Of a stretch of 59,409 nt of DNA, positions 2,400 through 24,632 are shown piece after piece. The stretch is from an uncultured Geobacter sp. (lineage in GTDB: Bacteria; Desulfobacterota; Desulfuromonadia; Geobacterales; DSM-12255). The stretch's first letter is position 1. Every line of letters starts with the position of its first letter. The DNA is taken from assembly GCA_964432205.1 (NCBI GenBank), contig CAYSMK010000032.1, positions 1 to 59,409 on the forward strand, read 5' to 3'. The translations under genes were made by a program, and so were the position numbers. The notes below the pieces were generated by a model, which saw nothing but the letters and a program-made list of their open reading frames with translations, was not told where the DNA came from and did no database searches.

Positions 2400-2697
2400 G
2401 ACTTCCTTACCAATCTCCATAGCTCACTCCGCACTTATTTAGTCCAACCGTCGGTCTCACGGCTACACCAATCGTTGGGGTCCTTATTTCAGTTCAAAGG
2501 CTCATCCAAGCGATCCGATTCGGCCACCCATTCAATCTCCCCACGTGCGAAAACTTTACCACCGCACAAAATACTTGCACTTAACAAAAGCAACAGTTTT
2601 TGCCCTAATTACGGCATGAAAAGTTCGTTTCAGAGGGATATCGGGAAGAATGCAACAAGTCTACTTCTGGCGAGCCTTTCCTAAGGAAAGTGTACCT

Positions 2698-4305
2698 TCA
2701 ACCCCTAACCGTAGCCTTCCTCACTCCCTCCCAATCCAGACTAAACCTTGCAAGGTACTTTCGTAGGCGGTCTGCGTCGTTGTTGCTTTTTTTCCCCTGC
2801 CGGGAAACGGCAAAAAGCTTTCGACCTGCCTCCGAGAGCGTTGCGGCGCTTCGGCAAATTCGGAGCACTTCGGCTAGCTGGACCCGGTCGAAGCAGTCGA
2901 GTCCGGCTGCCGTTTCCTCGTCCAGAACCGCCTGTAGCAGGGAACTGCCTGGATCGGCCCCCCCGCCTTCCCAAGTAGACCGCAGACGTCCAATCTCTTC
3001 TTCGACGACTTCGACGGTTATTCGCCCCGCCGGCGCCAGCGTCGCCATTCGTCTGACCGCACCGTTCAGATCGCGAAAGTTTGCCGGCCAACGGGCCTCG
3101 GGGCTCGCTGCAAATTCAAGAAAGCGCCTTCTTGCCTGCTGGTTGAAGGTGATGCGGTTGCCACTTCGCTCCGTAAAACGCTCCAGTTCGTAATCAAGGT
3201 TCGGTTCAATGTCCTCAGTTCGCTCTGCAAGCCCTGGAAGGGAGAAGGTCCAGAGGTTGATGCGGGCAAGGAGGTCTCCGCGAAACCGCCCCTTTGCAAC
3301 TTCCTGACCAAGGTCGCGATTGGTGCCACACAGGAGCTGAAAATCACTCTGGGCTTCGGAATCGGAACCAAGTGGGAGGAAGCGATGCTCCTCGATCGCC
3401 CGCAGCAGCATTGCCTGCTCATCGAGGCCGAGCTCGCCGATCTCATCAAGAAACAGCATCCCTTTGTCCGCCGACCGCAACAGCCCGGGGCGATCCTGTA
3501 GTGCTCCGGTGAACGCCCCGCGACGATGGCCGAACAGTGCCGACATGGCGCTGTCTCCACGCAGGGTTGCGCAGTTTACCTCCACAAAGGCCCCGGGGAT
3601 CTGTCGGCGGGCCTTTTTTAGTTCAAAGATTCGACGGGCAAGTTGGGATTTCCCTGCGCCGGTGGGGCCTGTCAAGAGGATCGGATCGATCGAGTTTATG
3701 GCAACACGCTCGACCTGCTCAATCAGGGCATTGAATCGCGGGCTGCGCGTCTCGATGCCGGACTTCAGGAACGAGATGTCGTCCCGTTTCTCCTGGTTAA
3801 AACGGGTGGCGATACGGTCATATTTCGAGAGGTCCAGGTCGATGACGGCGTAGTCGCCGGGCACCTTTTTCTCTGGCCCGTTCGACGGACCGGTCTGGAT
3901 CAACTTGGCCGGGAAATAGTGGGCCTCGGTGAGGAGGAACAGGCAGATTTGGGCAACATGGGTGCCCGTGGTGATGTGCACCAGATACTCTTCCTGTTCC
4001 GTGTCAAAGGTGTACCCTCTGGCGAAGTCGTGCAGTGCGGCAAAGACCTCCTCGAAATCCCATGGATTCCTGAACTCGATGCAGTGGGGAACTACCTCGG
4101 TCTCAGGGGAGACTTGGTGGATGTCGCCGATGATCCGCTTGAGGAGCGATGCGTAGCGGCGCTGGTAGATGAGGTCGAAGCGGTTTACTAGGAGCTCTTC
4201 GTGCTGACAGAGGGATACGGTTGGCCGCCACCGCTCCCACCGTTTGGGTTCCTTGCCGCTGTCCAGGATCGGGCCGAGTAGGCCGATGACTACCGTTCGT
4301 TTCAT
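2698..4305 (-). CDS. rtcR: RtcR, sigma-54-dependent transcriptional activator with N-terminal CARF domain
   Basis: Near-colinear similarity to E. coli RtcR throughout. Shared segments include the N-terminal CARF region (TVVIGLLGPILD...RWRPTVSLCQHE), Walker A LLTGPTGAGKS, the GAFTGA motif (HRRGAFTGALQDR) and the C-terminus SRQGKKSNNDADRLRKYLARFSL. Divergent from the rtcA/rtcB operon. Confidence 0.95.
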   Translation of the reverse strand: MKRTVVIGLLGPILDSGKEPKRWERWRPTVSLCQHEELLVNRFDLIYQRRYASLLKRIIGDIHQVSPETEVVPHCIEFRNPWDFEEVFAALHDFARGYTFDTEQEEYLVHITTGTHVAQICLFLLTEAHYFPAKLIQTGPSNGPEKKVPGDYAVIDLDLSKYDRIATRFNQEKRDDISFLKSGIETRSPRFNALIEQVERVAINSIDPILLTGPTGAGKSQLARRIFELKKARRQIPGAFVEVNCATLRGDSAMSALFGHRRGAFTGALQDRPGLLRSADKGMLFLDEIGELGLDEQAMLLRAIEEHRFLPLGSDSEAQSDFQLLCGTNRDLGQEVAKGRFRGDLLARINLWTFSLPGLAERTEDIEPNLDYELERFTERSGNRITFNQQARRRFLEFAASPEARWPANFRDLNGAVRRMATLAPAGRITVEVVEEEIGRLRSTWEGGGADPGSSLLQAVLDEETAAGLDCFDRVQLAEVLRICRSAATLSEAGRKLFAVSRQGKKSNNDADRLRKYLARFSLDWEGVRKATVRG

Positions 4306-4349
4306 ATAATATCCTATAAATTATTATAAACATGTATAACATTTCTAAC

Positions 4350-4420
4350 CCGCCGATCGCCACAAAAACGTGCCCTAAATCTATGTTGCACCCAAAAACG
4401 TAGTTACTACGAAAAGTTAC
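4350..4420 (+). promoter_or_regulatory. candidate RtcR enhancer (UAS) region
   Basis: AT-rich stretch just upstream of the -24/-12 element. Contains direct repeats AAAAACGT (x2) flanking an imperfect palindrome GTGCCC-N13-TTGCAC. Confidence 0.3.
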
Positions 4421-4445
4421 AGGTAATTGCGGGCGACAATGGTCT

Positions 4446-4463
4446 GCTGGCACGGCAGTTGTA
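4446..4463 (+). promoter_or_regulatory. candidate sigma-54 (-24/-12) promoter for the rtc operon
   Basis: CTGGCACGGCAGTTGTA: the -24 TGGCACG is perfect. The -12 reads TTGT instead of the consensus TTGC, one mismatch in the GC dinucleotide. Correct position and orientation relative to the bEBP gene rtcR. Confidence 0.4.
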
Positions 4464-4590
4464 ATTCCCGATATCAGAAACGCCACTGCGACCGGGCCGG
4501 CGGCGCATGGTCCTCCGACATCTGAACGGCAGTTACCGGGACGATGCGGTCAGGGGCATGTGTTCCTCACCGGGTTCTGACGAAGGTCAT

Positions 4591-4668
4591 GGCGGCGTCT
4601 GGTTAGCTCAATGGTAGAGCACCGTGCACCACACGGGAGTTGCAGGTTCGAGTCCTGCGCCAGAAACG
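4591..4668 (+). ncRNA. tRNA-like element (non-canonical; Y-RNA/YrlA-like tRNA mimic) in the rtc operon leader
   Basis: Perfect D-arm GCTC-AATGGTA-GAGC (4606-4620). Perfect T-arm GCAGG-TTCGAGT-CCTGC (4642-4658). Anticodon-like arm CCGTG-CACCA-CACGG has only a 5-nt loop. The acceptor pairing GTCTGGT/GCCAGAA is imperfect and there is no 3' CCA. Overall the element resembles tRNA-Trp-like sequence. Confidence 0.45.
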
Positions 4669-5004
4669 GGCTTTTAACCCGTTACAGCCGCTTCGGCGGC
4701 AGACCACGCCCGAAGGGGGCGGGGCGCACCGGGGCGAACCGGTTGGGTATCCGCCGGCAATCACCACTGTTCATGCGCCTTGCGGCACGCGGATTCCGCC
4801 GGTGGGGAAGCGACATGAAGGGGGAGCGGATTACCATCGCCCAGCCGGCAGTTGGATAAGCCGGAACAGATGGTGACTTAGACTCCCCGCTTCATGCCAC
4901 CGAGCCACCGGCTCAAGGGTTGTCCCGCGCAGTCAGTGCGGCCCCGGAAACGCCTCGCCCCCTGACGGCACTTGCTATTACCTTGGCAGCAAAGGAGGTT
5001 CACC

Positions 5005-6111
5005 ATGTACGGCATCGGGTATGTAAAGGTTCACTCCCATGAAAAAGGGCTGCTCTTCAGGGATAAAGAGTTCAGGGGAGTACTGGGCACAGGGCGACAT
5101 TGGTTCTTCGACCCGACCAACGCGGTCCGGGTGGACGTGGTTTCCCAGAGGTCGCCCTGGCTGTCTCACGAGGCACTCGATCTCATCGTGAAGTCGGGCG
5201 CCTTGGAGGATGAGGCCATGGTGCTGGACCTGAAGGATCATGAACGGGCACTGGTCTGGATTGACGGCCGCTTCGAACGGGTTCTCGGCCCAGGACTCCA
5301 TGCGCTCTGGACTCGGCTCAAGGAGGTCAGGGCAGAGGTAGAGGACGCCCGTTCTGTTCGTTTCAGCCATAAGGATATGAGCACGATCCTCGCCTCCACC
5401 TCTTCCGGGGAGCAGCTTGACAACGTGATGGTCGAAGAAGGGGTTGCGGCCGTGTATTTCAAGGATGGAGAATACGTGCAGACGCTTGGCCCGGGGCGCT
5501 ATCTTTTCTGGAAGCAGATGGGTAAGGTTCGGGTCCAGCATGTTGACCTTCGGGAAACAGTGCTGGACGTGGGTGGGCAGGAGATAATGACCGGTGACAA
5601 GGTTACGCTGCGGTTGAACGCTCAGGTGACCTACCGGGTGACCGACCCGCACCGGTCGGTAACTGCCGTGGAGAACCTCTCCCAGTCCCTGTACCGGGAA
5701 GCCCAGTTGGACCTGAGGGCCATAATCGGAGGCTATGAGCTGGACAGGCTGCTGGAGGGAAAGGACCAATTGGCCGGAGAGGTGGAGCTGGCGTTGACCC
5801 GACGTGCGCCGGAATTCGGCATCAAGATAATCGGTGTGGGGATTCGCGACCTGATCCTCCCGGGCGAGATGAAGGAGCTGCTGAACAAGGTCATCGAGGC
5901 CCGCAAGGCCGCCGAGGCCAACCTCATCGTACGCCGGGAGGAGACCGCCGCCATGCGCAGCCAGGCCAATACAGCAAAGCTGCTGGAAAACAACCCGACC
6001 CTTATGCGCTTGCGGGAACTGGAGGTGTTGGAAAAGGTGGCCGGCAGCTCGGAGCTGAAGGTGGTTCTGGGAGAGAAGGGTTTAGCCGACAGGGTGGTCA
6101 ATCTGCTGTAA
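5005..6111 (+). CDS. SPFH/band-7 (stomatin/prohibitin/flotillin/HflKC-like) domain protein, first gene of the rtc operon
   Basis: SPFH core (DKVTLRLNAQVTYRVTDP ... LDLRAIIGGYELDRLL ... ILPGEMKELLNKVIEARKAAEANLI) plus a C-terminal coiled coil. AAGGAGG RBS 8 nt upstream of the ATG at 5005. The upstream in-frame ATG at 4972 has no RBS. Confidence 0.8.
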   Translation: MYGIGYVKVHSHEKGLLFRDKEFRGVLGTGRHWFFDPTNAVRVDVVSQRSPWLSHEALDLIVKSGALEDEAMVLDLKDHERALVWIDGRFERVLGPGLHALWTRLKEVRAEVEDARSVRFSHKDMSTILASTSSGEQLDNVMVEEGVAAVYFKDGEYVQTLGPGRYLFWKQMGKVRVQHVDLRETVLDVGGQEIMTGDKVTLRLNAQVTYRVTDPHRSVTAVENLSQSLYREAQLDLRAIIGGYELDRLLEGKDQLAGEVELALTRRAPEFGIKIIGVGIRDLILPGEMKELLNKVIEARKAAEANLIVRREETAAMRSQANTAKLLENNPTLMRLRELEVLEKVAGSSELKVVLGEKGLADRVVNLL

Positions 6112-6182
6112 CATGAAGTAACAATATGGAGTCTGCCGGATGTCTGCGTTCAGTCTTTCAATTCAACAGAAGGAGTATCACA

Positions 6183-7232
6183 ATGATTGCAATCGACGGT
6201 TCACATGGGGAGGGGGGCGGCCAGATCCTGCGGTCGGCATTGGCCCTCTCTCTGGTCACCGGGAAACCGTTCCGCATAGAGAATATCCGTGCCCGCCGGA
6301 AAAAGCCGGGACTGATGCGCCAGCATCTGACGGCGGTGAATGCCGCGGTTGAAATCGGTGCGGCACGTGTCTCGGGGAACACAATCGGATCTCAGGAGCT
6401 AACCTTTGTGCCCGCCGCGCTACGCTCCGGCCAGTACCGGTTTGCCGTCGGCACTGCCGGGAGCTGCACCCTGGTGCTGCAAACGGTTCTGCCGGCACTG
6501 GTTCTGGCCGACGGGCCATCGAAGATACTGCTCGAAGGCGGAACCCACAACCCCGCTGCGCCCCCCTTCGACTTCCTTGCCAACGCGTTTCTGCCGCTGC
6601 TGAACCGGATGGGGCCGTCCGTTACGGCAGTGCTGGAGCGTCCCGGTTTCTACCCGGCCGGCGGTGGCCGTATGCGGGTGAGGGTGACGCCGGCTCGGCG
6701 GTTGGTACCACTCCACGTCCTCGAACGTGGTGCGGTCGTCGGTCGCACTGCCCGGGCAACCGTTGCCCGCCTGCCGCTCTCCATTGCCGAAAGGGAGATC
6801 GCCGTGGTTAGGGAGAAACTGGCGTGGGAAGACGACTGCATGAAGGTCGGGGAAACGCCAGACTCCAGCGGTCCGGGGAATGTCCTCGTTCTCACGGTGT
6901 CGAGCGAACAGGTCACCGAGGTATTCACCGGGTTCGGCGAATAGGGGGTGAGCGCCGAGACCGTGGCTGGCCGCACCATCAAGGAAGTGCGGGAATATCT
7001 GGCCTCTGGGGTTCCAGTGGGGAGGCATCTGGCAGACCAACTATTACTCCCCCTGGCACTTGCGGGCAAAGGGGCATTTTGCACCCTCTCTCCATCTGCG
7101 CACACGACCACCAACATAGAGGTGCTGCGGCTCTTTCTCGATCTGGACGTGCAAGTGCAACAGCAGGATGAACAGGGATGGCTGATCTCGATCGGGGCTG
7201 GAGAATCACTGGTACGCAGCCAAGCCATATAA
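6183..7232 (+). CDS. rtcA: RNA 3'-terminal phosphate cyclase RtcA, interrupted by an in-frame TAG at 6942-6944
   Basis: MIAIDGSHGEGGGQILRSALALS...KPGLMRQHLTAV...YRFAVGTAGSCTLVLQTVLPAL is colinear with E. coli RtcA. The reading frame is unchanged across the stop: upstream ...FTGFGE, TAG, downstream GVSAETVAGRTIKEVREYLAS. E. coli has GEKRVSAEVV here, so the stop replaces a Lys/Arg codon. AGGAG RBS before the ATG at 6183. Confidence 0.85.
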
Positions 7233-7256
7233 CCTTCTGGATAAAGGAATCTTGTC

Positions 7257-8420
7257 ATGAAATACATTGATACTGAACGGGTAGTAATAAAAAGCTGGTG
7301 CAACGAGCCCGAGGGAAACGCCCTCGCCCAAGCCCGGAACCTTGCCAACCTTCCCTTTGTTTTTCGGCAGGTCTGCCTGATGCCCGATACCCATGAAGGT
7401 TACGGCATGCCCATCGGCGGGGTTATTGCGACCGAAGGAGCCGTGATTCCCAATGCCGTCGGCGTCGATATCGGATGCGGCATGCTGGCGATGCAGACAA
7501 GCCTGGCGGAGATCGACCTGCCGGCCCTGAAGAGGATCATCGGGACGATGCGTGAAACAATCCCGGTCGGATTCGAGCACCACAAGGAGCCCCAGGACGA
7601 AAGTCTGATGCCGCCGATGGACGATCCTGCGCTCTACCCAGAGGTAAGTCGACAGTACCGCTCTGCCTGCAAACAAATCGGTACCCTCGGGGGAGGAAAC
7701 CACTTCATTGAGGTGCAGAAGGGCTCCGATGGCCATATTTGGTTCATGATTCATTCCGGCAGCCGTAATTTCGGGCTCAAAGTGGCGAACCGCCACAACC
7801 GGATCGCCGTCGACCTGAATGAGCGATGGCATGTTGCGGTCCCGAAAAAATGGGAGCTGGCCTTCCTGCCGATTGAAACCAAAGAGGCCTCCGTCTATCT
7901 GCGGGAGATGCGCTACTGCCTTGACTTTGCCTTGGCTAACCGGCAGCTCATGGCCAGCCGGGTCCGCGATGCGTTCCGTGACAAAATCCCGGACGTCACC
8001 TTTAGCGATGCGATCAACATCCATCACAACTACGCCGCGTTTGAGAACCATTTCGGGCAAAACGTCCTAGTCCACCGCAAGGGGGCGACCTCGGCCCGGG
8101 AAGGGGAAATGGGGATCATTCCTGGCTCGCAGGGGACGGCCAGCTACATCGTGCGGGGGAAGGGAAATCCGGACAGTTTCACGAGCTGTTCCCACGGCGC
8201 CGGCCGAAGGATGGGACGGCAGGCGGCGATCAGGAATCTCGACCTGGAAACGGAACAGAAGGCCCTGGAGGAAAAAGGGATCCTCCATGCCCTGAGGGGG
8301 AAGAGGGACCTGGAGGAGGCGGCAGGGGCGTACAAGGATATCGACTTGGTGATGGAAGAGCAGCAGGATTTGGTAGATATCGTTGTACGTCTTGAACCAC
8401 TGGCGGTCATCAAGGGGTAG
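7257..8420 (+). CDS. rtcB: RNA-splicing ligase RtcB
   Basis: RtcB hallmarks: metal and GTP site residues (LMPDTHEGYGMPIGG, GGGNHFIEV, HHNYAAFENH, CSHGAGR). Length 387 aa. Confidence 0.95.
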   Translation: MKYIDTERVVIKSWCNEPEGNALAQARNLANLPFVFRQVCLMPDTHEGYGMPIGGVIATEGAVIPNAVGVDIGCGMLAMQTSLAEIDLPALKRIIGTMRETIPVGFEHHKEPQDESLMPPMDDPALYPEVSRQYRSACKQIGTLGGGNHFIEVQKGSDGHIWFMIHSGSRNFGLKVANRHNRIAVDLNERWHVAVPKKWELAFLPIETKEASVYLREMRYCLDFALANRQLMASRVRDAFRDKIPDVTFSDAINIHHNYAAFENHFGQNVLVHRKGATSAREGEMGIIPGSQGTASYIVRGKGNPDSFTSCSHGAGRRMGRQAAIRNLDLETEQKALEEKGILHALRGKRDLEEAAGAYKDIDLVMEEQQDLVDIVVRLEPLAVIKG

Positions 8421-8491
8421 CGAAGCGTGGTTTTCACCCCCCCCCGTAGGAAGCGTAAGTTTCCCAAAATAGACAGTTCAACAGTGGAGTC

Positions 8492-8518
8492 GGGGCCTCA
8501 CAAGAGTCCCCTTTTTTT
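8492..8518 (+). terminator. intrinsic terminator after rtcB
   Basis: GGGGCCTC-ACAA-GAGTCCCC hairpin (one mismatch) followed by TTTTTTT. Confidence 0.55.
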
Positions 8519-8856
8519 CTCCATCTTCCTTGCTCGGAAGCAATCCCCTCTGCGGATTTTCGATGGTCCTGCCCCTTCCCAATCAGAGAGTGCAAAAACT
8601 TCTACTTCTGGCAAAGGACCGACCCATTTCTTCTGCCTGGCTGCAACATCCGCAAGCTTCATCACCGTGGCGGCTGAGCTGTACGAACCTCTTAGTAAAG
8701 TGTCCACTTATTTCTTACCACCTCACTCAAAAACGGCCGCTTTAAGATGCGAGGAGTGCTCAGAAGACTAGGGGCGATTCAGTCATAAGTTTTATGTGTG
8801 TGTGGGCCATCTTGACTCCTAGTGAATACGGGAATATGCGGCTGAAGTAGCTGGAG

Positions 8857-8925
8857 TGAGCCGTTTGAGCCCTTTATGAGCCCTTTGTTTCGCTTGAGCC
8901 GTTTGAGCCCTTTATGAGCCCTTTG
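8857..8925. repeat. 31-bp perfect direct repeat x2 (7-bp spacer) overlapping the 3' end of the DUF4062 gene
   Basis: TGAGCCGTTTGAGCCCTTTATGAGCCCTTTG occurs at 8857-8887 and 8895-8925. Each copy contains three TGAGCC sub-units. On the minus strand both copies encode KGLIKGSNGS, so the C-terminal coding sequence is duplicated. Confidence 0.9.
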
Positions 8926-10364
8926 AGAGCCAGGATATAATGTGTGCCTTTCCCAGTGGTGCCGACTTTTTTGATAATCCCTCTTTTAACCAGATCGTCC
9001 AAGTCACGGGAGGCCGTAGGTTTTGATACCGCGAACCTCTCCTGGTATTCTGAGTTTGTCATCGATATTCCTGATTTAACCAGCATTACAGCCTTTGTTT
9101 GGCGTTCGCTCAGTTCAAATCCAGCCAGCACTTGCGGCGTTAGCCAATCCCTCCAGATCGTAGAGACAAACGACCCACTGCGCATCTCAAATTGGGGTTC
9201 AGGGAGACCCGCTTCTTGGCAAAGCTCTATCATGGTCTGTGTGCCAGACCCTATCCGCTCGATGTAGCGGGCAAGGTAGAGAGGTTCGGCAATGAGGGGA
9301 TTATAGGGGACAGAGGGATGATCGCCCCGAAGGCCCTCAAGCGTCAGGTTGCCCGGCAGCATCCCTGGATTCCAAATCTCCAGACGATCAGAGAAAAGAC
9401 GGACTTCCACGGAAGCGTTACTGTGGTAGTCTCTATGGGCGATTGCGTTGACAATGGCTTCGCCTACGGCGTCCGGAGGAAGTTCGTAGGTGGCAGGCGC
9501 TACGTTGCTTTCGGACCGAACACCGATTGAGCGATTGATTTTGCTCAGAACAAAGTCCCTTGCCTGGTCTGCCTGCTGGAATAGATCTCCGTCGTAAACC
9601 TGCATTGACGCAAATGGCCGGCGGAAGACAGTACCGTGGCAGTGGACGCACTTCGTTACCGCGGTCTGGTGAAATTTTTGAGGGTTCGTCCCGAACAGTA
9701 ACAACGCCGCATTGGTAGGTCTGCCATCGTCAAGAAGGTGAAGATGAGTGAGCAATGCCGTCGTACTGGTGTTTGGCTTGAGGGGAAAGTTCCGCTCGCG
9801 TCGAGCCACGTCGAGGAACCACTCTACTCGTTTGCGTGAGATATCCTTTTGTGACGACTGACCACTGGTCGATGTGTCAAAAGGCGGTACCTGCAACGCT
9901 CCCAATCTGTCCAGATGTTCGACTAGACTGGCATATACCTCGGACATCAAAGCACTGATGCCCTCAACCCTACGCCGAGTCAGCTCACCGCCGATTTTAC
10001 TGACAAGCTGTTGCATCTTCGGGTTCCGGTGCTTGTCATCGGAACCCCAGACATAGACGAGTCTAGTTTTCCCATGGCGTCCGGCATGATCGTATTCGCG
10101 CTCGGTCGGACAAATGCCTTCGGCATCTTCAAACCCGTAATCATATCCGAAAATGCCAAGGTAGACATCGCACCGCTCAACTTCTTCAAGATAAACTTCA
10201 TCGGCACGTCGGCTGTTTGCCGGCATCTCTTCAAAGAGGAATACTTCGGAAATAAACCGGCGCAACACCGCATCCCCAAGCAGAAATGCTTTAAGATCCC
10301 GCCGAGCTTGCGAGAATTCCTTCTGGACACTGCTGATGAATACTTTCAGTCTGATAGGTGGCAT
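8874..10364 (-). CDS. DUF4062-like N-terminal domain + Schlafen-like AlbA_2 domain + HATPase_c_4 (RecG C-terminal-like)/wHTH protein
   Basis: N-terminus KVFISSVQKEF...CDVYLGIFGYDYG matches the DUF4062 pattern. The middle (VEWFLDVARRERNFPLKP...ALLLFG) looks AlbA_2/Schlafen-box-like. Next is APATYELPPDAVGEAIVNAIAHRDY...GSGTQTMIELCQEAGLPEPQF, typical of HATPase_c_4 'RecG-like' regulators. The C-terminus is a wHTH. Lower GC than neighbours. Confidence 0.7.
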   Translation of the reverse strand: MPPIRLKVFISSVQKEFSQARRDLKAFLLGDAVLRRFISEVFLFEEMPANSRRADEVYLEEVERCDVYLGIFGYDYGFEDAEGICPTEREYDHAGRHGKTRLVYVWGSDDKHRNPKMQQLVSKIGGELTRRRVEGISALMSEVYASLVEHLDRLGALQVPPFDTSTSGQSSQKDISRKRVEWFLDVARRERNFPLKPNTSTTALLTHLHLLDDGRPTNAALLLFGTNPQKFHQTAVTKCVHCHGTVFRRPFASMQVYDGDLFQQADQARDFVLSKINRSIGVRSESNVAPATYELPPDAVGEAIVNAIAHRDYHSNASVEVRLFSDRLEIWNPGMLPGNLTLEGLRGDHPSVPYNPLIAEPLYLARYIERIGSGTQTMIELCQEAGLPEPQFEMRSGSFVSTIWRDWLTPQVLAGFELSERQTKAVMLVKSGISMTNSEYQERFAVSKPTASRDLDDLVKRGIIKKVGTTGKGTHYILALKGLIKGSNGSSETKGS

Positions 10365-10786
10365 GAAATCCTGCTTTCAATCACGAAATATGGTTTTACA
10401 ATACCATGCAGCACCCGGCGCGCCAATTCAGTATTTCAATGGCCCAATTTCCGGGGGGAAGGTCAGAGCACCAACCTGACAACAAAGAAGAAACGGCGGC
10501 GAAAGCCGGCCAAAGAATACGGCTCCTACCTGATCGAAATTTTCAGCGCAAAGGTTCGCTACTCCATTACCGAGACCGGAGCAAATAGCTCAGCCCCGGA
10601 CCATATTCGGAATACCCTGCAATCGAATAGATCGGGAGGATCAAACTCTTTGACCGTTGGGATCTTTGGTTTCCGCTGCAAAATGAACCACGGCAGCAAG
10701 GGAACTCAGTATTCATCGATAACAATTTCGACGCCTACCCCGATCAATGGGCGTATCTGGCGGCAGTCAAGCGACTCACGCCCCAG

Positions 10787-12325
10787 TTGGTAAGAGCAGT
10801 AGCCGATAAGGCTGCTCGCCAGGGTCAGGTCATCGGACTGCTCATGCCATCCGAAGACGATGAAGATCAGGCCCCATGGGAGCGAACCCCTTCGGGGAAA
10901 ACGACGGCGCGGGTCAAAGGGAAACTGCCAAAGCAGGTAAAGGCTGTCGTAGCCCAACACATCTTTGTTCCCAAGAAAGGGCTGCCTTCGGCATTTCTTA
11001 TCCGGATCAAACGGCTGGCCGCTTTTCAGAACCCGGAGTTCTACAAGAAGCAGAAGATGCGACTATCCACCAACCTAACCCCACGGGTCATCACTTGCTT
11101 CGAGGAACTGCCGGAATACATTGCCATCCCCCGCGGATGCCTTGATGCCTTGGCGGCTCTGTTCGACGAGCACAATATTCAGCTTTCTCTTGAGGATAAG
11201 CGTCAGGAGGGAGTTCCTGTAGCCTTCAGCTTCCATGGGACCCTCAAAGACAACCAGCAGCAAGCGGTCGACGCACTGCTGGACCATGATATCGGCATCT
11301 TTGTGGCTCCTCCCGGTCATGGCAAGACGGTCGTGGGTTCTTACCTAACTGCTGCGCGAAAGTGCTCCACACTTGTTCTTGTGCACCGCAAGCCTCTTTT
11401 GGACCAATGGGTTGCCCAACTGAGCAGCTTCCTCAACGTGCCAAGAAAAGCTATCGGCACAATTGGCTCAAGTAGAAACAAGCCGAATGGCGTCCTTGAT
11501 GTCGCCATGATTCAGAGCCTGGTCCGAAAGAACGAGGTGAGCGACCTGGTAGCAGGATACGGGCAGATTATCGTGGACGAGTGCCATCATCTTCCTTCGG
11601 TATCGTTTGAGCGGGTTCTGGCTGAGGTGAAAGCCCGATATGTCGTTGGTCTCACCGCCACTCCTTACCGGCGTGATGGGCACCAGGCCATCATTCATTT
11701 CCAGTGTGGTCCGACCCGTTTTAGCCTAAACCGCAGACAACAGATTGAGACAGAGGACTTCACCCGTCGGCTGATCCTTCGAGAAACCGGCTTTGGTCTT
11801 TCTGGCGAGGCAGAACTGAGCATTCAGGAACTCTATGCCCGGCTGGCGGCAAACCGCGAACGTAATTTGCTGCTCCTCGAAGACGTAAGACAAGCACTCA
11901 AACAAAAGCGATCACCCATCCTGCTCACCGAAAGGAAAGACCATCTGGAGTTCTTTGCTGAAAACCTTCGGGACGAGGTACGTCATCTGATAGTCTTACA
12001 AGGGGGGATGGGGATCAAACAACGGCGGGCGGTCATGGCAAAGCTCGAGGCAATTCCCGATGGAGAGGAACGGTTGATTGTTGCCACAGGACGGTACATC
12101 GGCGAAGGCTTTGATGACGCCAGGCTGGACACGCTCTTTCTGACCTTGCCTTTTTCGTGGAAGGGGATGCTTGTGCAGTATGCTGGCCGACTGCACCGAA
12201 CGCACTCCGAGAAAAATGAGGTACAGATCTACGATTATGTGGACAGCGCGGTCCCGATGTTGGCCAAGATGCACGCCAAGCGAATGCGCGGCTTCAGGGC
12301 AATGGGGTATGAGCAGATTCCTTAA
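10787..12325 (+). CDS. SF2 DExH-box helicase (ResIII-like ATPase core + helicase C domain)
   Basis: Motif I VAPPGHGKTV, motif II IIVDECHHLPS, motif III GLTATPYR, motif VI QYAGRLHRT. 512 aa with no other recognisable domain. Divergent from the DUF4062 gene with about 420 bp of shared intergenic DNA. Confidence 0.85.
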   Translation: MVRAVADKAARQGQVIGLLMPSEDDEDQAPWERTPSGKTTARVKGKLPKQVKAVVAQHIFVPKKGLPSAFLIRIKRLAAFQNPEFYKKQKMRLSTNLTPRVITCFEELPEYIAIPRGCLDALAALFDEHNIQLSLEDKRQEGVPVAFSFHGTLKDNQQQAVDALLDHDIGIFVAPPGHGKTVVGSYLTAARKCSTLVLVHRKPLLDQWVAQLSSFLNVPRKAIGTIGSSRNKPNGVLDVAMIQSLVRKNEVSDLVAGYGQIIVDECHHLPSVSFERVLAEVKARYVVGLTATPYRRDGHQAIIHFQCGPTRFSLNRRQQIETEDFTRRLILRETGFGLSGEAELSIQELYARLAANRERNLLLLEDVRQALKQKRSPILLTERKDHLEFFAENLRDEVRHLIVLQGGMGIKQRRAVMAKLEAIPDGEERLIVATGRYIGEGFDDARLDTLFLTLPFSWKGMLVQYAGRLHRTHSEKNEVQIYDYVDSAVPMLAKMHAKRMRGFRAMGYEQIP

Positions 12326-12347
12326 GCAAAAAAGCCCGTTGCGGCCA

Positions 12348-12535
12348 GTATACAACTTTATTTTTCAGCCCATCCGTGGCATGCTGAAAAGCGGTATACA
12401 ACTTTATTTTTCCGCTCTCGAAGACTGAGCAACGTAAGCTCTTGAAATTTCGTGGTCGCCAGTATACGACTTTATTTTACGGGGACATGATTTTGTCCGG
12501 TGAAAATAAAGCCGGAAACTGAAAAATAAAGTTGG
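12348..12535. repeat. iteron-like array: three direct 19-bp repeats and two inverted partial copies
   Basis: GTATACAACTTTATTTTTC at 12348-12366 and 12394-12412. GTATACGACTTTATTTTAC at 12462-12480. Reverse-orientation copies GAAAATAAAGCCGG (12502-12515) and GAAAAATAAAGTTGG (12521-12535). AT-rich non-coding DNA directly after the helicase stop. Confidence 0.85.
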
Positions 12536-12682
12536 AAACTCCGGACAGGCGGGCGGTGCTCACAGATCCACTTATGAAGCGTTGGTTGAACGCGAGACGC
12601 GGTTCACCCTGTCTAAATGCATCATTACCGCAAATTAGCGGACCTCGTCGAGGGAAACACTGATTGATGCGAGGAGTATACC

Positions 12683-13156
12683 TTATTCAACGGGCTTATT
12701 AGCTTTAGAATTAAGGCGATCTTTGCGATTTTGTTTAGCTCTTATTTGCTTATTGGCTTTAATCTCTTTACTTACCAAGTCATAGTACTTTTGTTGCTCA
12801 GGAGTCAAACATCTATCAATCCTGTTTTTTGTATCATTTCGTAGGTCTTCAACCATTTTCTGAATCTTCTTTGGGCTAAGATCTTCGTTATTTCTAATCT
12901 CATTAAACTTGGCATACTCGTTCTCAAGGAGTGGCTTAATCTGTTTCTGTTGCTCTTCTGTCAGTTTGAGCCCCTTGGTCAACCGACTCAGTTGCACCTC
13001 CGGCTGTGGCATCATTCTTTCGTTCATGCTATTGATTCTGACAGTTTCTGAAAGTCTCTTTTCTTTTTCCAACTGATCATCACTCTGGGCAGTGGCAACT
13101 GAGGTCATGCTCGTTGAAATTGCCATTGCCAACAGTACCAACAGAACCCTTTTCAT
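12683..13156 (-). CDS. periplasmic LTXXQ-motif protein (Spy/CpxP-like)
   Basis: Signal peptide MKRVLLVLLAMAISTSMTSVATA. Two LTXXQ-type motifs (LTEEQQKQI, LTPEQQKYY). Helical and lysine-rich. Low GC. Confidence 0.55.
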   Translation of the reverse strand: MKRVLLVLLAMAISTSMTSVATAQSDDQLEKEKRLSETVRINSMNERMMPQPEVQLSRLTKGLKLTEEQQKQIKPLLENEYAKFNEIRNNEDLSPKKIQKMVEDLRNDTKNRIDRCLTPEQQKYYDLVSKEIKANKQIRAKQNRKDRLNSKANKPVE

Positions 13157-13532
13157 GATGTACCTCCTCGAGTCAGTAGTGCTCAAGCGGTATTTATATC
13201 ACCAACTCCCCATTCTTCAACTGAAGAGCCGCGGCAAGTGTTGAGGCCTGCCGTTGAAAAGCGCAAGAAGCTCCTGGCCGATTTGAAGGCAAAAAAGAAG
13301 CGGATCGCAACCCTGAGCAGTGGAGCACTCAATTGAGTACATTACAAACCCACCAAAATCGATAGCTGTGCCACCTCGCTATGCCACAACACCATTGATC
13401 CAACATAACATATCGATTTAACATCAGTTACCGAGACACAAAAATCACTCCAACATATGGCGCGTTCCATGCAAGCCTAACTCAACCTTCCGAGACGGGA
13501 AGATCAACCAAGCGATCAACAACTCACAAAGG

Positions 13533-22827: not shown

Positions 22828-24096
22828 CTATCCCTTCTTCACAGGTTCAATCAATATACCGTCTATTTCCAAATCAATTTTCAAGCGTTTGGCTGCATCT
22901 TTGGCCTCACTGATATCATTGAACGGGCCAGCAATAACACGGTGGTTATCGCTCTTTGACAATACCCTTGCCGGGATTTGTGGGCCCTGATGGTTGATAA
23001 TGGCGGCAATCCTCAGAGCCTCAATTTTGTCTCGCAGATCAGCAGCCAAAACATACCATGCCTCCAGTTTCAGTTCCGGTAGTTCCGGTCTGCCATACAA
23101 TGTGTCCGGGTGCTCTACTTCTATGGTTTTCGCAGCCTCTTTTTCACTTCCTTGACTCATCTCGAAGATGGGAACAGGAATGCCTCGGCCCTCGGCCTGT
23201 ACTTCCTTGACTTTTTTCCAGTCAAGCGTGCGTACCAACTTCTTCTCAAAATTTCTCAATTTCGCATATATCTTCTCCAGTTCAATGGCGCCAGAGTCCT
23301 CCAGAGGCGTATGGGCTTCCATGTAAAGTACTCCATCACGTTGGCCTATGAGATATGGCTGATTGACAATGAGTACAGAGGTATTAACCGGAGTGTCGTT
23401 GAAGAGCATCTCCACGTTTTCCGGATAGAGTCTCAAGCAGCCATTGGATGCATTAAGACCAATGCTGGCCGGTTTATTGGTGCCGTGGATCAAATAACCC
23501 GATTTGCTTAAATAGAGCGCATATTCTCCCAAGGGATTTTGAGGTCCCGGCGGGACTTCTGCAGGCAAGAGATCTCCTTTTTTTCGATGGTCCTCAGCAA
23601 TTGAAGCAGGCACATGCCAGGTCGGCCGGGTTGCCTTGCGCGCCACACGCATTTGGCCCGTGGGGGTGGGCCGTTCTTTGGTCCCGACGCCGACCGGGTA
23701 GGTCGACACCACCAGTGACTTCTTATCCTCCTTGAATTGAAAGAGCCTCTTGGTTGCCAGGTTGACCACAATGCCTTTCCGAGGAGCGTCCGGCAGGATA
23801 AAATTCAGAGGCAGTATGATGCGCTCTCCGGCCTCAGGCACCCATACATCTGTCCCTGGATTGGCTGTACTGATCTCATTGATCCCCAACCCGAAGTGTC
23901 GTGCGATGTCCGGTAGCGTATCCCCCTTTTCCAGCCTGATGACTGCCAACTTGCCAATGACGTCATCTCCTTTTGCAACTGAAAACGTAGTTCGTTCGAT
24001 ATCCTTTTCAAGATGGCTCGGAAGAAGCCATGCGTTCTCCTGAGCCCTCTTCATGGCACATCCATTGAGAGCTACGATGAATACACATAGAGCCAT
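22828..24096 (-). CDS. LysM + L,D-transpeptidase (YkuD) + C-terminal SPOR-like domain lipoprotein
   Basis: Lipobox ALNGC. LysM (GDTLPDIARHFGLGINEI). YkuD (LIHGTN...SNGCLRL). C-terminal SPOR-like (RVIAGPFNDISEAKDAAKRLK). Confidence 0.8.
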   Translation of the reverse strand: MALCVFIVALNGCAMKRAQENAWLLPSHLEKDIERTTFSVAKGDDVIGKLAVIRLEKGDTLPDIARHFGLGINEISTANPGTDVWVPEAGERIILPLNFILPDAPRKGIVVNLATKRLFQFKEDKKSLVVSTYPVGVGTKERPTPTGQMRVARKATRPTWHVPASIAEDHRKKGDLLPAEVPPGPQNPLGEYALYLSKSGYLIHGTNKPASIGLNASNGCLRLYPENVEMLFNDTPVNTSVLIVNQPYLIGQRDGVLYMEAHTPLEDSGAIELEKIYAKLRNFEKKLVRTLDWKKVKEVQAEGRGIPVPIFEMSQGSEKEAAKTIEVEHPDTLYGRPELPELKLEAWYVLAADLRDKIEALRIAAIINHQGPQIPARVLSKSDNHRVIAGPFNDISEAKDAAKRLKIDLEIDGILIEPVKKG

Positions 24097-24302
24097 AAGA
24101 CGAAGCCAATTGGATAACAGTGACAGTTCAACGATTCGGCACATGGGTTTAATAGGTACCTTTCTCAACTATGAAATACCCCGGGCATCAGTTTCTCTAC
24201 GTCATCAAGACAACCAACTTGCTGTCAAACAATGTTCACCCTTGCGACGCTTTGTTGACTGCAACTTCTCCTTGAGATGGTTCCCCGCAATTGGTGTCCG
24301 GA

Positions 24303-24414
24303 CACAAAAAAGCCGGGGCCGAAGATAAGGTGACATTTCGGCAACCCGGCTGTCTCAGTGAGACCCTATAGGCTTTCCGCCCCACCCTCGCGGATGGTTG
24401 AGTATTATCGTTTA
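24303..24414 (-). ncRNA. structured RNA element copy 1 (ends in an intrinsic terminator). Candidate sRNA or cis-leader upstream of the LysM-LDT gene.
   Basis: Minus-strand reading: GNRA-capped hairpin CCAUCC-GCGA-GGGUGG, hairpin GUCUC-ACU-GAGAC, then GC-rich two-tier hairpin AGCCGGG...CCCGGCU followed by UUUUUUG at the 3' end (about 24303). Confidence 0.45.
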
Positions 24415-24520: not shown

Positions 24521-24632
24521 CAACAAAAAAGCCGGGGCCTAATATCGCGTGATATTTCGGCAACCCGGCTGTCTCAGTAAGACCCGTAGGCTTTCCGCCC
24601 CATTCTCGCGAATGGTTAAGTATTATCGTCTA
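24521..24632 (-). ncRNA. structured RNA element copy 2 (about 85% identical to copy 1) with candidate sigma-70 promoter
   Basis: Same three hairpins with compensatory changes (CCAUUC-GCGA-GAAUGG versus CCAUCC-GCGA-GGGUGG in copy 1). Terminator hairpin plus U6. On the minus strand just upstream, TTGACA-N16-TAGGAT (about 24652-24680). Confidence 0.5.

What the first reader, a model, noticed from the sequence alone, without database searches (positions are those of the whole stretch)
8857..12541. Lower-GC two-gene islet: DUF4062/Schlafen-like/HATPase_c_4-wHTH protein divergent from a stand-alone SF2 DExH helicase, bounded by unusual repeats. Candidate undescribed defence system.
Sequence shows: a 496-aa protein with an N-terminal DUF4062-type motif (KVFISS...CDVYLGIFGYDYG). 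I recall this domain as a small Rossmann/TIR-like module recurrent at the N-termini of anti-phage proteins. It is followed by an AlbA_2 (Schlafen-box-like) region and a HATPase_c_4/wHTH region. The gene is divergently transcribed from a 512-aa helicase with canonical motifs I, II (DECH), III and VI and no other domain. The pair sits in DNA that is visibly more AT-rich than the flanking rtcB and gltB genes. A 31-bp tandem duplication covers the 3' end of the first gene, and an iteron-like repeat array follows the helicase. No integrase or transposase is present. Established knowledge: the union of a Schlafen-like core and a helicase is reminiscent of eukaryotic group-III Schlafens (SLFN5/11, tRNA- and replication-targeting restriction factors), but here it is split into two genes and uses an SF2 rather than SF1 motor. 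Inference: a nucleic-acid-sensing defence or abortive-infection pair. It sits next to the Rtc RNA-repair locus, which responds to tRNA and rRNA damage. I do not recognise this combination as any named system (Hachiman, Gabija, Zorya, DISARM, Druantia, Mokosh or AbiE do not fit).
Basis: partly seen in the sequence, partly recalled or inferred. Interest (0 to 1): 0.8.

Follow-up and report, generated by a model that had tools for sequence, protein, structure and literature searches.

The report
Orphan NADase defence gene beside broken helicase
The proposed two-gene defence system is really one intact, probably anti-phage NAD-destroying enzyme of a widespread but untested type, sitting by chance next to the broken remnant of an unrelated primase-helicase gene.

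Summary
Two claims fail. Protein A (8874-10364, minus strand) has no AlbA_2/Schlafen domain. The "stand-alone" helicase is the 3' two-thirds of an ~800-aa AEP-TOTE primase-helicase. Homology to intact relatives starts abruptly at 10671 (their residue ~248), in-frame stops lie just upstream, and there is no native start codon.

The pairing is not conserved. Only 1 of 80 genomic loci holding a protein A relative has an AEP-helicase, and only 1 of 80 AEP-helicase loci has a (frameshifted) protein A relative. The closest relatives of each gene (~90% identity) lack the partner.

Protein A is DUF4062 (a TIR-like NADase shown in 2026 to be an anti-phage effector), then a GHKL ATPase (PF13749), then a wHTH. 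The NADase sits where the widespread Schlafen-GHKL-HTH ("Schlatpase") proteins carry their nuclease. The catalytic Glu (E90) and the ATP-binding residues are conserved across 71 relatives. The family occurs in at least 530 species and sits inside R-M operons in at least 42 of 80 loci (typically Type III Res-A-Mod).

Best reading: a decayed ~5-kb acquired islet holding an orphan single-gene NAD+-depleting abortive-infection module. It is a new variant of a known kind, of moderate interest.

The parts
8874..10364 (-). Gene A: intact 496-aa DUF4062(NIR NADase)-GHKL ATPase-wHTH protein
   Evidence: ORF. Pfam DUF4062 E 7.9e-19, HATPase_c_4 E 1.2e-22, wHTH. 90% identical homologue P0001 and more than 5000 relatives. 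dN/dS 0.079 against L004.
9990..10346 (-). DUF4062 / TIR-like NADase domain (residues ~7-125); catalytic Glu E90 is the codon at 10095-10097
   Evidence: The profile aligns residues 5-157 to the solved KpSwz DUF4062 structure 10wc_A. The TEREY motif aligns to TEK[E97A]F. E90 is conserved in 70 of 71 relatives. Foldseek hits to nucleoside 2-deoxyribosyltransferases, a CMP N-glycosidase and TIR domains.
9159..9491 (-). GHKL (Bergerat-fold) ATPase core, PF13749 (residues ~292-402), N-box E302/N306 and G1 box E369-G372-G374
   Evidence: Aligns to DIP2311 (3lmm) 293-403. These residues are conserved in 71 of 71 relatives. The role of the equivalent E314/N318 in RzAgo is described in 10.64898/2026.05.29.728809.
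8931..9113 (-). C-terminal winged helix-turn-helix (residues ~418-478)
   Evidence: Weak MarR/DeoR/DIP2311-like_C Pfam hits. Aligns to the wHTH of Fic protein 8cil and of 3lmm. PADLOC SoFic C-terminal match.
8857..8925 (.). Two exact 31-bp direct repeats (8857-8887, 8895-8925) built from TGAGCC(C/G)TTT sub-repeats, spanning the stop codon of gene A
   Evidence: They encode the KGLIKGSNGS...KGS tail, which is a family feature. The independent assembly contig L172 ends inside the repeat.
10365..10670 (.). 305-bp spacer of unknown origin; presumed promoter region of gene A; 10371-10407 is shared with the upstream region of the L004 homologue
   Evidence: No similarity to the AEP-helicase gene or other loci apart from a 37-bp match to L004 9592-9628.
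10671..12325 (+). 5'-truncated remnant of an AEP-TOTE primase-SF2 helicase gene (equivalent to residues ~248-799; the primase catalytic domain is missing)
   Evidence: tblastn aligns P0121 residues 248-796 only. Full-length homologues carry PF22548 at 59-288. There is a sharp DNA junction with 98% identity from 10671, in-frame stops upstream, and the first start codon, TTG 10787, is an internal Leu codon. No SD-like sequence before candidate starts.
12347..12540 (.). Array of five ~18-bp sites (AAATAAAG-N4-AWACT): three on the minus strand (12347, 12393, 12461) and two on the plus strand (12504, 12524), facing each other across 12488-12493; possible remnant of multi-site transposon ends
   Evidence: Absent from all fetched loci and from plasmids. 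The transposon-end reading rests on memory of Tn7-R only.
12683..13186 (-). Low-GC 167-aa Spy/CpxP-like periplasmic protein gene (part of the islet, unrelated to defence)
   Evidence: NCBIfam Spy E 6e-7, CpxP E 2e-4. GC 0.42.
13231..13316 (+). Displaced 3' fragment of the small gene that lies upstream of NTP_transf_8 and the AEP-helicase in L001-L003
   Evidence: blastn 85% over 86 bp to L001 9088-9172.

Best explanation
The region between rtcB and gltB (about 8430-13530) is a small, horizontally acquired and partly decayed islet, not a two-gene system.

Its one intact defence-type gene, gene A, encodes a single-polypeptide module with three parts:
- an N-terminal DUF4062/NIR TIR-like NADase (effector);
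- a helical stalk and a GHKL ATPase (switch);
- a C-terminal winged HTH (ligand or nucleic-acid binding).

It has the chassis of the abundant Schlafen-GHKL-HTH ('Schlatpase') proteins, with the Schlafen RNase exchanged for an NADase.

Inferred mechanism: the protein is kept auto-inhibited. A phage cue sensed through the wHTH/GHKL part promotes ATP-dependent oligomerisation, which brings the NADase domains into an active assembly. NAD+ is hydrolysed and the infected cell stops growing (abortive infection).

In most genomes this module rides co-directionally inside restriction-modification operons. Here it is an orphan.

The neighbouring 'helicase' is the 3' 1.65 kb of an AEP-TOTE primase-helicase gene. 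Its primase domain, start codon and upstream partner genes were lost in a rearrangement. It is most likely a recent pseudogene that sat in the same variable spot.

Shown: domain content, conserved catalytic residues, the truncation, lack of conserved linkage, and R-M embedding of relatives. Inferred: NADase activity of this protein, ATP-driven activation, the trigger, and the phage-defence phenotype.
For: Truncation:
- homologues are ~800 aa with PF22548, and only residues 248-796 align to the window.
- sharp junction at 10671, upstream stops, no native start.
- even the 505-aa variant P0173 has a separate AEP ORF directly upstream.
- a displaced fragment of the operon's first gene lies at 13231-13316.

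No conserved pair:
- 1 of 80 protein A loci has an AEP-helicase.
- 1 of 80 AEP-helicase loci has a frameshifted protein A-like gene.
- the nearest relatives are unlinked.
- the slot upstream of AEP-helicases is filled by varied TA/Abi genes.
- each gene occurs singly on conjugative plasmids.

Protein A architecture:
- DUF4062 replaces SLFN_AlbA_2 on a shared GHKL-wHTH body; the top fold match is DIP2311 (3lmm); the N-terminal domain matches NDT/TIR folds and KpSwz.
- E90, E302, N306, E369, G372 and G374 are conserved in 70-71 of 71 relatives at 47-76% identity.

Function of the domains in relatives:
- DUF4062 proteins deplete NAD+ and abort infection, and this needs the catalytic Glu (10.64898/2026.05.01.722283, 10.64898/2026.09.04.749371, 10.64898/2026.06.25.731849).
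- ATP binding by the PF13749 GHKL domain drives the oligomerisation that activates the fused effector (10.64898/2026.05.29.728809).

Defence context of the family:
- at least 42 of 80 loci are inside Type III, Type I or HKD-Snf2/Type IIG operons.
- at least 530 species across many phyla.
Against: - No experiment exists on this architecture. The three DUF4062 papers do not mention a GHKL/HATPase partner in their text, so activity and trigger are extrapolated.
- The structure model is only moderately confident (mean pLDDT 69.7).
- The window copy has no R-M partner, so if the family depends on one it may be inactive here.
- The helicase remnant keeps an open 549-codon frame and all helicase motifs. 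Its dN/dS against an intact relative is 0.075, so a residual function expressed from an internal start cannot be excluded.
- Protein A-like genes do sit immediately upstream of full-length AEP-helicases in two unrelated loci (L047, L156). With the window, that makes three juxtapositions, more than pure chance outside defence islands would give.
Confidence: 0.7

Rival explanations
1. One reading: gene A and the helicase form a divergently transcribed two-gene nucleic-acid-sensing defence system, a split analogue of group-III Schlafens.
For: The two genes are adjacent in the window. Both families live in defence/TA-rich neighbourhoods. A protein A-like gene lies directly upstream of a full-length AEP-helicase in L047 and L156.
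Against: - The helicase lacks its primase domain, start codon and RBS.
- There is no Schlafen domain.
- Linkage is 1 of 80 in each direction, and the orientation differs there.
- The ~90%-identical relatives are unlinked.
- Protein A's usual partners are R-M genes.
Confidence: 0.04
2. Protein A-type GHKL-wHTH proteins are one of several interchangeable accessory or effector genes of AEP-TOTE systems. On this view the window is a decayed copy of a once-functional protein A + AEP-helicase system.
For: - There are three independent juxtapositions (window, L047, L156), and a Schlafen-GHKL protein lies divergent from the AEP-helicase in L133.
- The slot upstream of AEP-helicases is variable and holds toxin-like genes (Fic, NTP_transf_8, AbiEii).
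- Protein A's wHTH resembles that of Fic/SoFic proteins.
Against: - Only 2-3 of ~50 AEP-helicase loci with enough upstream sequence carry such a gene. That is no more than AbiE pairs (6), as expected for co-residents of defence islands.
- 79 of 80 protein A loci lack the helicase.
- Gene A's homology to L004 ends exactly at the ORF, so it moved as a single gene.
Confidence: 0.1
3. Protein A is a ligand-responsive transcription factor or housekeeping ATP-binding regulator (as annotated: 'predicted HTH transcriptional regulator', 'ATP-binding protein'), not an immune effector.
For: It has a C-terminal wHTH. Database names say so. It sits next to par genes on Legionella plasmids.
Against: - The NADase catalytic Glu and ATPase residues are strictly conserved.
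- Distribution is patchy across phyla and includes an archaeon.
- Relatives are embedded between res and mod genes with overlapping or near-overlapping reading frames.
- All tested DUF4062 proteins are NADases used in defence.
Confidence: 0.08
4. The truncated helicase is still a working stand-alone SF2 helicase, expressed from an internal start and co-opted for a new role.
For: It keeps an uninterrupted 1.65-kb frame with motifs I, II (DECH), III and VI intact. dN/dS is 0.075 against the intact relative.
Against: - All 120 listed homologues keep the AEP domain or are contig-edge fragments, and the one short variant examined has a separate AEP ORF directly upstream.
- No SD-like sequence precedes TTG 10787 or ATG 10844.
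- The low dN/dS mostly reflects divergence that predates the truncation.
Confidence: 0.08

Closest known systems
Single-gene DUF4062/NIR NADase defence proteins: Swarozyc (KpSwz), Evangelion (Eva01), Vulcan
   Same: All have an N-terminal DUF4062 TIR-like domain with the catalytic Glu in a T-E-x-E-[FY] motif, followed by a helical stalk and a C-terminal auxiliary sensor region. All are single genes, horizontally mobile and found among defence genes. The profile of protein A's family aligns to the solved KpSwz domain (10wc_A) over residues 5-157.
   Different: The auxiliary region here is a GHKL ATPase plus wHTH of ~340 aa. It has no detectable similarity to the KpSwz AUX, to HEAT repeats (Vulcan) or to the Eva01 AUX. 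An ATP-dependent switch is not described for those systems. Protein A's relatives are typically embedded inside R-M operons. This architecture has not been tested experimentally.
'Schlatpase' proteins (SLFN_AlbA_2 + GHKL PF13749, usually + C-terminal HTH; COG2865; structure DIP2311/3lmm; SLFN-pAgo RzAgo)
   Same: Protein A shares a homologous GHKL-wHTH body: 27% identity and E 5e-22 over residues 202-482 with the L023 Schlatpase, with 3lmm as the top fold hit. It also shares the conserved ATP-binding E/N and G1-box residues, similar length, and frequent defence or R-M neighbourhoods.
   Different: The Schlafen tRNase domain is absent and is replaced by a DUF4062 NADase. The predicted output is therefore NAD+ depletion, not tRNA cleavage.
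AEP-TOTE primase-helicases (Pfam PF22548 'TOTE conflict system, Archaeo-Eukaryotic Primase domain'; NCBI 'TOTE conflict system archaeo-eukaryotic primase domain-containing protein')
   Same: Window 10671-12325 is 87% (DNA) and 91% (protein) identical to the C-terminal 550 residues of P0121, including the SF2 helicase core.
   Different: The defining AEP domain (residues ~59-288, including the invariant D-x-D and SGNGAH motifs of alignment A2) is missing, as are the start codon and the upstream operon genes. I found no paper describing TOTE in the searchable library.
PrrC / RloC-type abortive-infection effectors embedded in R-M operons (established knowledge, from memory)
   Same: Relatives of protein A sit co-directionally between R-M subunits: Res-A-Mod and HsdM-HsdS-A-HsdR. 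PrrC sits the same way within the EcoprrI locus. This suggests a back-up effector coupled to an R-M system.
   Different: The effector chemistry is an NADase, not an anticodon nuclease, and the sensor is different. No interaction with R-M proteins has been shown. The window copy has no R-M neighbour.

Membership tests
DUF4062 / NIR NADase defence proteins | DUF4062 (PF13271) domain above the Pfam gathering score | tested here: met
   68.1 bits against a cutoff of 24.7, E 7.9e-19, residues 7-94.
DUF4062 / NIR NADase defence proteins | Catalytic glutamate equivalent to KpSwz E97 / Vulcan E98 | tested here: met
   In the alignment to the KpSwz E97A structure sequence, TEK[A]F aligns to TEREY, which maps to E90. 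E90 is conserved in 70 of 71 relatives.
DUF4062 / NIR NADase defence proteins | TIR / nucleoside-2-deoxyribosyltransferase-like fold | tested here: met
   Foldseek hits of the N-terminal domain to NDTs, CMP N-glycosidase BcmB and the RPS4/RRS1 TIR, probability 0.99-1.0. The model's pLDDT is ~70-88 in this domain.
DUF4062 / NIR NADase defence proteins | NAD+ hydrolysis and phage-triggered NAD+ depletion / abortive infection | not testable with these tools
   Needs biochemistry and phage assays.
Swarozyc (KpSwz-type) | C-terminal AUX domain homologous to the KpSwz portal-binding HTH/winged module | tested here: not met
   The family profile matches KpSwz only over residues 5-157, with no match of the C-terminal 340 residues. 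The C-terminal part instead matches DIP2311 and the GHKL domain.
Schlatpase (Schlafen-GHKL supradomain) | SLFN_AlbA_2 (PF04326) nuclease domain | tested here: not met
   No hit in residues 96-332 at E<=10, nor in the full protein. The control Schlatpase from L023 gives PF04326 at E 1.3e-19.
Schlatpase (Schlafen-GHKL supradomain) | GHKL ATPase PF13749 with conserved Mg/ATP-binding Glu and Asn | tested here: met
   PF13749 E 1.2e-22. E302/N306 are conserved in 71 of 71 relatives.
AEP-TOTE primase-helicase | AEP-TOTE primase domain (PF22548) | tested here: not met
   Absent from the window ORF. P0121 has it at residues 59-288 (E 4.7e-97). The window aligns only from residue 248.
AEP-TOTE primase-helicase | C-terminal SF2 helicase core homologous to the family | tested here: met
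   91% identity to P0121 over 549 residues; ResIII + Helicase_C.
AEP-TOTE primase-helicase | Complete reading frame with its own start codon | tested here: not met
   Stops lie upstream of 10671. The first start codon, TTG 10787, corresponds to an internal Leu.
Group-III Schlafen-like (SLFN core + helicase) | Schlafen core domain and a linked, conserved helicase partner | tested here: not met
   There is no Schlafen domain. The helicase is SF2, truncated, and not a conserved neighbour.
R-M-embedded abortive-infection module (PrrC-like arrangement) | Gene located inside an R-M operon | tested here: not met
   Met for at least 42 of 80 relatives, but the window has no R-M gene or remnant near gene A.

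The most novel reading that the evidence does not exclude
The DUF4062-GHKL-wHTH family (at least 530 species, bacteria plus an archaeon) may be an uncharacterised class of immune effector. In it, a NAD+-hydrolysing NIR domain has replaced the Schlafen tRNase on the ATP-switched 'Schlatpase' chassis. It would act as a built-in second line of defence for Type III and Type I restriction-modification systems (Res-A-Mod, HsdMS-A-HsdR), firing when the R-M complex is inhibited or overwhelmed, much as PrrC does for EcoprrI. The window would then hold an orphan copy that has escaped its R-M host.
Probability: 0.3. Interest if true: 0.65.

Novelty: new variant of a known kind. Interest (0 to 1): 0.42.

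Why it matters
If protein A works as inferred, two things follow. First, the GHKL-wHTH body of the very abundant Schlafen-ATPase proteins would be a general, portable ATP-dependent switch that can drive different suicide effectors, an RNase or an NADase. Second, the newly recognised DUF4062/NIR NADases would gain a nucleotide-regulated, R-M-embedded branch.

The frequent Res-A-Mod arrangement offers a tractable test of whether R-M systems carry NAD+-depleting back-up effectors.

For this window specifically, the practical lesson is about annotation. The 'helicase' should be treated as a gene fragment, not as a partner.

Tried and rejected
- **AlbA_2/Schlafen in the middle of protein A.** Rejected after a lax Pfam scan and a comparison with a true Schlatpase.
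- **R-M remnants around gene A in the window.** None found by tblastn of 641 neighbour proteins.
- **The missing AEP domain elsewhere in the window.** There is only one HSP.
- **An 'empty site' or the source genome via exact look-ups.** RtcB gave only L172, a 100% identical contig that ends in the 31-bp repeat. Protein A itself is not on record.
- **Literature on 'TOTE'.** Four searches and one candidate paper yielded nothing.
- **The repeat array as known RNA or known DNA.** No Rfam hit, no copy in 170+ fetched loci, and no plasmid match. The idea that it is two abutting Tn7/IS21-like multi-site transposon ends rests only on my memory of the Tn7-R sequence and is left open.
- **PADLOC.** No model covers the DUF4062 part. 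The hits are to pAgo-associated Schlafen/GHKL proteins and SoFic wHTH, so the 2023 database does not recognise the protein as a system.
- **Phage genomes.** Only GHKL-wHTH partial matches, with no full-length relative.
- **A functional link to the Rtc locus.** Only one of 80 homologue loci has an RtcB-like neighbour.

Full report
**1. What is there**

The two ORFs exist as described: gene A at 8874-10364 on the minus strand (496 aa), and an ORF at 10787-12325 on the plus strand (512 aa). Upstream lie rtcR, a band-7 gene, a frameshifted rtcA and rtcB. Downstream lies gltB.

GC content is 0.49-0.54 across the two genes and 0.42-0.47 in the next kilobase, against 0.58-0.65 in the flanks.

Both repeat sets are real:
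- The 31-bp exact direct repeat at 8857-8887 / 8895-8925.
- The five-site array at 12347-12540. No shuffle of the window produced five matches.

The rest of the 59-kb window is chromosomal housekeeping: chemotaxis clusters, Lon, glutamate synthase and menaquinone synthesis. This is an isolated ~5-kb islet, not part of a large defence island.

**2. The helicase is a gene fragment**

Almost all of the 120 best homologues of the 512-aa ORF are ~800 aa and carry an extra N-terminal Pfam domain, PF22548 ('TOTE conflict system, Archaeo-Eukaryotic Primase domain'). One is named that way by NCBI.

The evidence for truncation is as follows:
- In the 91%-identical P0121, the primase domain spans residues 59-288 (E 4.7e-97).
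- tblastn of four full-length homologues against the window gives a single alignment that begins at their residue 246-256 and at window position 10670.
- At the DNA level, identity to the intact gene in L001 is 98% from 10671 onward and nil before it.
- In the helicase frame there are stop codons just upstream of the junction.
- The first possible start, TTG 10787, is an internal leucine codon in P0121.
- No Shine-Dalgarno-like sequence precedes the candidate internal starts.
- Even the ~505-aa variant P0173 has a separate 261-aa AEP-TOTE ORF directly upstream, so that short variant still keeps the primase next to the helicase.

The window therefore holds only the 3' two-thirds of the gene.

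In L001-L003 the intact gene follows a small gene and an NTP_transf_8 gene. In the window, an 86-bp piece of that small gene lies at 13231-13316, on the far side of the helicase remnant. More than one rearrangement must have occurred.

dN/dS of the remnant against L001 is 0.075. The truncation is therefore recent relative to the divergence of the two copies, or, less likely, the fragment is still under selection.

**3. The pairing is not conserved**

- The closest relative of each gene lacks the other. P0121 sits in a defence island with Type I R-M, CAP12-TIR, GmrSD, HEPN and SoFic genes. P0001 sits beside an ISL3 transposase in an integrase/ParA region.
- Of 80 species-representative genomic loci holding a protein A relative (47-76% identity), only L047 has an AEP-TOTE helicase within 10 kb.
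- Of 80 metagenomic loci holding a full-length AEP-helicase, only L156 has a protein A-like gene, and it is frameshifted.
- In both of those cases the protein A-like gene is directly upstream and co-directional, not divergent as in the window.
- The position upstream of AEP-helicases is highly variable. It is filled mainly by toxin-antitoxin and Abi genes: AbiEii/AbiEi in six members, then PIN, HigB, PemK, Fic and NTP_transf_8.
- Both genes also occur singly on conjugative plasmids.
- DNA homology between the window and the L004 copy of gene A ends exactly at the start codon and 42 bp past the stop, so gene A moves as a single gene.

**4. What protein A is**

Pfam gives DUF4062 (residues 7-94), HATPase_c_4/PF13749 (317-401) and a weak wHTH (418-470). 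There is no AlbA_2, even when residues 96-332 are scanned at E<=10.

The AlphaFold model has a mean pLDDT of 69.7. Its best PDB match is DIP2311 (3lmm), the solved representative of the AlbA_2-GHKL-wHTH family. The N-terminal domain matches nucleoside 2-deoxyribosyltransferases, a CMP N-glycosidase and TIR domains.

A profile of the family gives three alignments:
- residues 292-402 align to 3lmm 293-403;
- the wHTH aligns to 3lmm and to a Fic protein;
- residues 5-157 align to the solved KpSwz DUF4062 domain (10wc_A).

A genuine Schlafen-GHKL-wHTH protein found next to a protein A relative in L023 has SLFN_AlbA_2 at residues 54-167. It aligns with protein A only from residue 202 to 482 (27% identity, E 5e-22).

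The conclusion is that protein A has the GHKL-wHTH body of the 'Schlatpase' supradomain proteins (10.64898/2026.05.29.728809), with a DUF4062 domain in place of the Schlafen nuclease.

**5. Functional inference**

Three 2026 preprints show that DUF4062 (also called NIR) is a TIR-like NADase and an anti-phage effector. [quoted passage not shown]
- Swarozyc, with KpSwz E97, activated by the phage portal;
- Avs2, Vulcan (E98) and Vesta (E103);
- Evangelion.

In the alignment to the KpSwz E97A structure sequence, that position corresponds to E90 in protein A's TEREY motif. E90 is conserved in 70 of 71 relatives.

In the Schlafen-Argonaute RzAgo, the PF13749 GHKL domain binds ATP through E314/N318, and ATP binding drives the tetramerisation that activates the fused effector. 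The equivalent E302/N306 and the G1-box E369/G372/G374 of protein A are invariant in 71 of 71 relatives.

I therefore infer an ATP-switched, oligomerisation-activated NADase that causes abortive infection, with the wHTH and adjacent region acting as the sensor. None of this has been tested for this architecture. The three DUF4062 papers do not mention a GHKL/HATPase, Schlafen or helicase partner in their text, and I could not see their figures.

**6. An unexpected family trait**

Clustering of neighbour ORFs shows that protein A relatives are embedded, co-directionally and often with overlapping or near-overlapping reading frames, in restriction-modification operons in at least 42 of 80 loci. 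The arrangements are:
- A ~1020-aa ResIII + RE_endonuc protein immediately upstream (21 loci) and a ~940-aa Type III methyltransferase immediately downstream (18 loci; full-length PADLOC MTase_III match). Fourteen loci have both, and a NERD/UvrD-type helicase often follows.
- HKD-Snf2 upstream and a Type IIG enzyme downstream (about 6 loci).
- HsdM-HsdS upstream and HsdR downstream (about 6 loci).

This resembles the way PrrC is embedded in EcoprrI (from my own knowledge), and it suggests a back-up effector coupled to R-M. The window copy has no R-M gene or remnant nearby, so it is an orphan.

**7. The repeats**

The 31-bp repeat encodes the KGLIKGSNGS...KGS tail. A similar KG-x-x-KGS-x-GS tail is present in P0001, P0009, P0010 and P0012, and DNA homology to L004 runs through the repeat. 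It is a property of the gene's repetitive 3' end, not an insertion scar. The independent contig L172, which is 100% identical to window 2417-8886, ends inside it. That suggests the repeat breaks short-read assembly.

The array after the helicase has three sites on one strand and two on the other. TGTCC-type sequences face each other across 6 bp. From my memory of the Tn7 right end, it looks like two abutting multi-site transposon ends. However, I found no second copy in the window, no transposase in the islet and no database match. It remains unexplained.

**8. Verdict**

Gene A is a new variant of a known kind: a DUF4062/NIR NADase effector on a GHKL-wHTH switch, widespread and usually R-M-embedded. 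The helicase ORF is a pseudogene-like remnant of a known family.

Interest is moderate. The domain swap and the R-M embedding are worth a specialist's experiment, but the specific claim that prompted the finding does not hold.

Noticed in passing
window 6126-7232 (+): rtcA is split by a frameshift into a 272-aa ORF (RTC + RTC_insert) and a 94-aa ORF (RTC C-terminus). The same split is called in the independent Logan contig L172, so it may be a real pseudogene or programmed shift rather than a sequencing error.
   Followed up: partly
window 4597-4667 (+): A 'tRNA-Gly' with the unusual anticodon ACC (ARAGORN; Rfam tRNA only 41.8 bits) lies between the divergent rtcR gene and the band-7/rtcA/rtcB operon. 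It could be a tRNA-like element belonging to the Rtc operon leader rather than an ordinary tRNA gene.
   Followed up: no
window 24337-24413 and 24556-24631 (-): Two tandem c-di-GMP-I riboswitch aptamers lie upstream of the 446-aa ORF at 22828-24168 (-), in a second lower-GC stretch (0.42-0.50 at 21.5-25 kb).
   Followed up: no
L017, L019, L027, L028, L044, L066 and others (protein A homologue at ~10001-11480): Relatives of protein A sit between the res and mod genes of Type III-like R-M operons (Res-A-Mod, often followed by a NERD/UvrD helicase), with reading frames overlapping or a few bp apart. Other relatives sit in HKD-Snf2/Type IIG and Type I operons. In total, at least 42 of 80 loci show such embedding.
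   Followed up: yes
L047 10001-13893; L156 6700-10394; L133 2972-7331: GHKL-wHTH proteins lie directly next to full-length AEP-TOTE helicases in three unrelated loci. They are DUF4062-type in L047 and L156 (the latter frameshifted) and Schlafen-type and divergent in L133. This is rare but recurrent.
   Followed up: partly
L173 (Legionella pneumophila plasmid NZ_CP021275.1) 7992-9563: A 523-aa homologue, 52% identical over residues 6-405 and annotated 'ATP-binding protein', sits alone beside parA/parB on conjugative Legionella plasmids. In other Legionella plasmids (e.g. pLPP of strain Paris) the match spans two annotated CDSs, so the gene may be split there.
   Followed up: partly
L097, L098, L102, L105, L116, L119, L134 and others, 50-200 bp downstream of the AEP-helicase: A small (~115-170 aa) co-directional gene with a weak CcbP-like Pfam hit recurs downstream of AEP-TOTE helicases in 11 of 83 loci. 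It is the only semi-conserved neighbour found and is absent from the window.
   Followed up: partly
window 12347-12540: A five-site array (AAATAAAG-N4-AWACT) has three sites on one strand and two on the other, with TGTCC-type sequences facing each other across 6 bp (12488-12493). It resembles abutting multi-site transposon ends, but there is no transposase, no second copy and no database match.
   Followed up: partly
window 12683-13186 (-): A Spy/CpxP-like periplasmic chaperone gene with the lowest GC of the region (0.42) lies in the same islet, convergent with the helicase remnant.
   Followed up: no
L172 (= window 2417-8886): A public short-read assembly of the same organism breaks exactly inside the 31-bp repeat at the 3' end of gene A. 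This gene may therefore often be missing or truncated in metagenome assemblies.
   Followed up: partly
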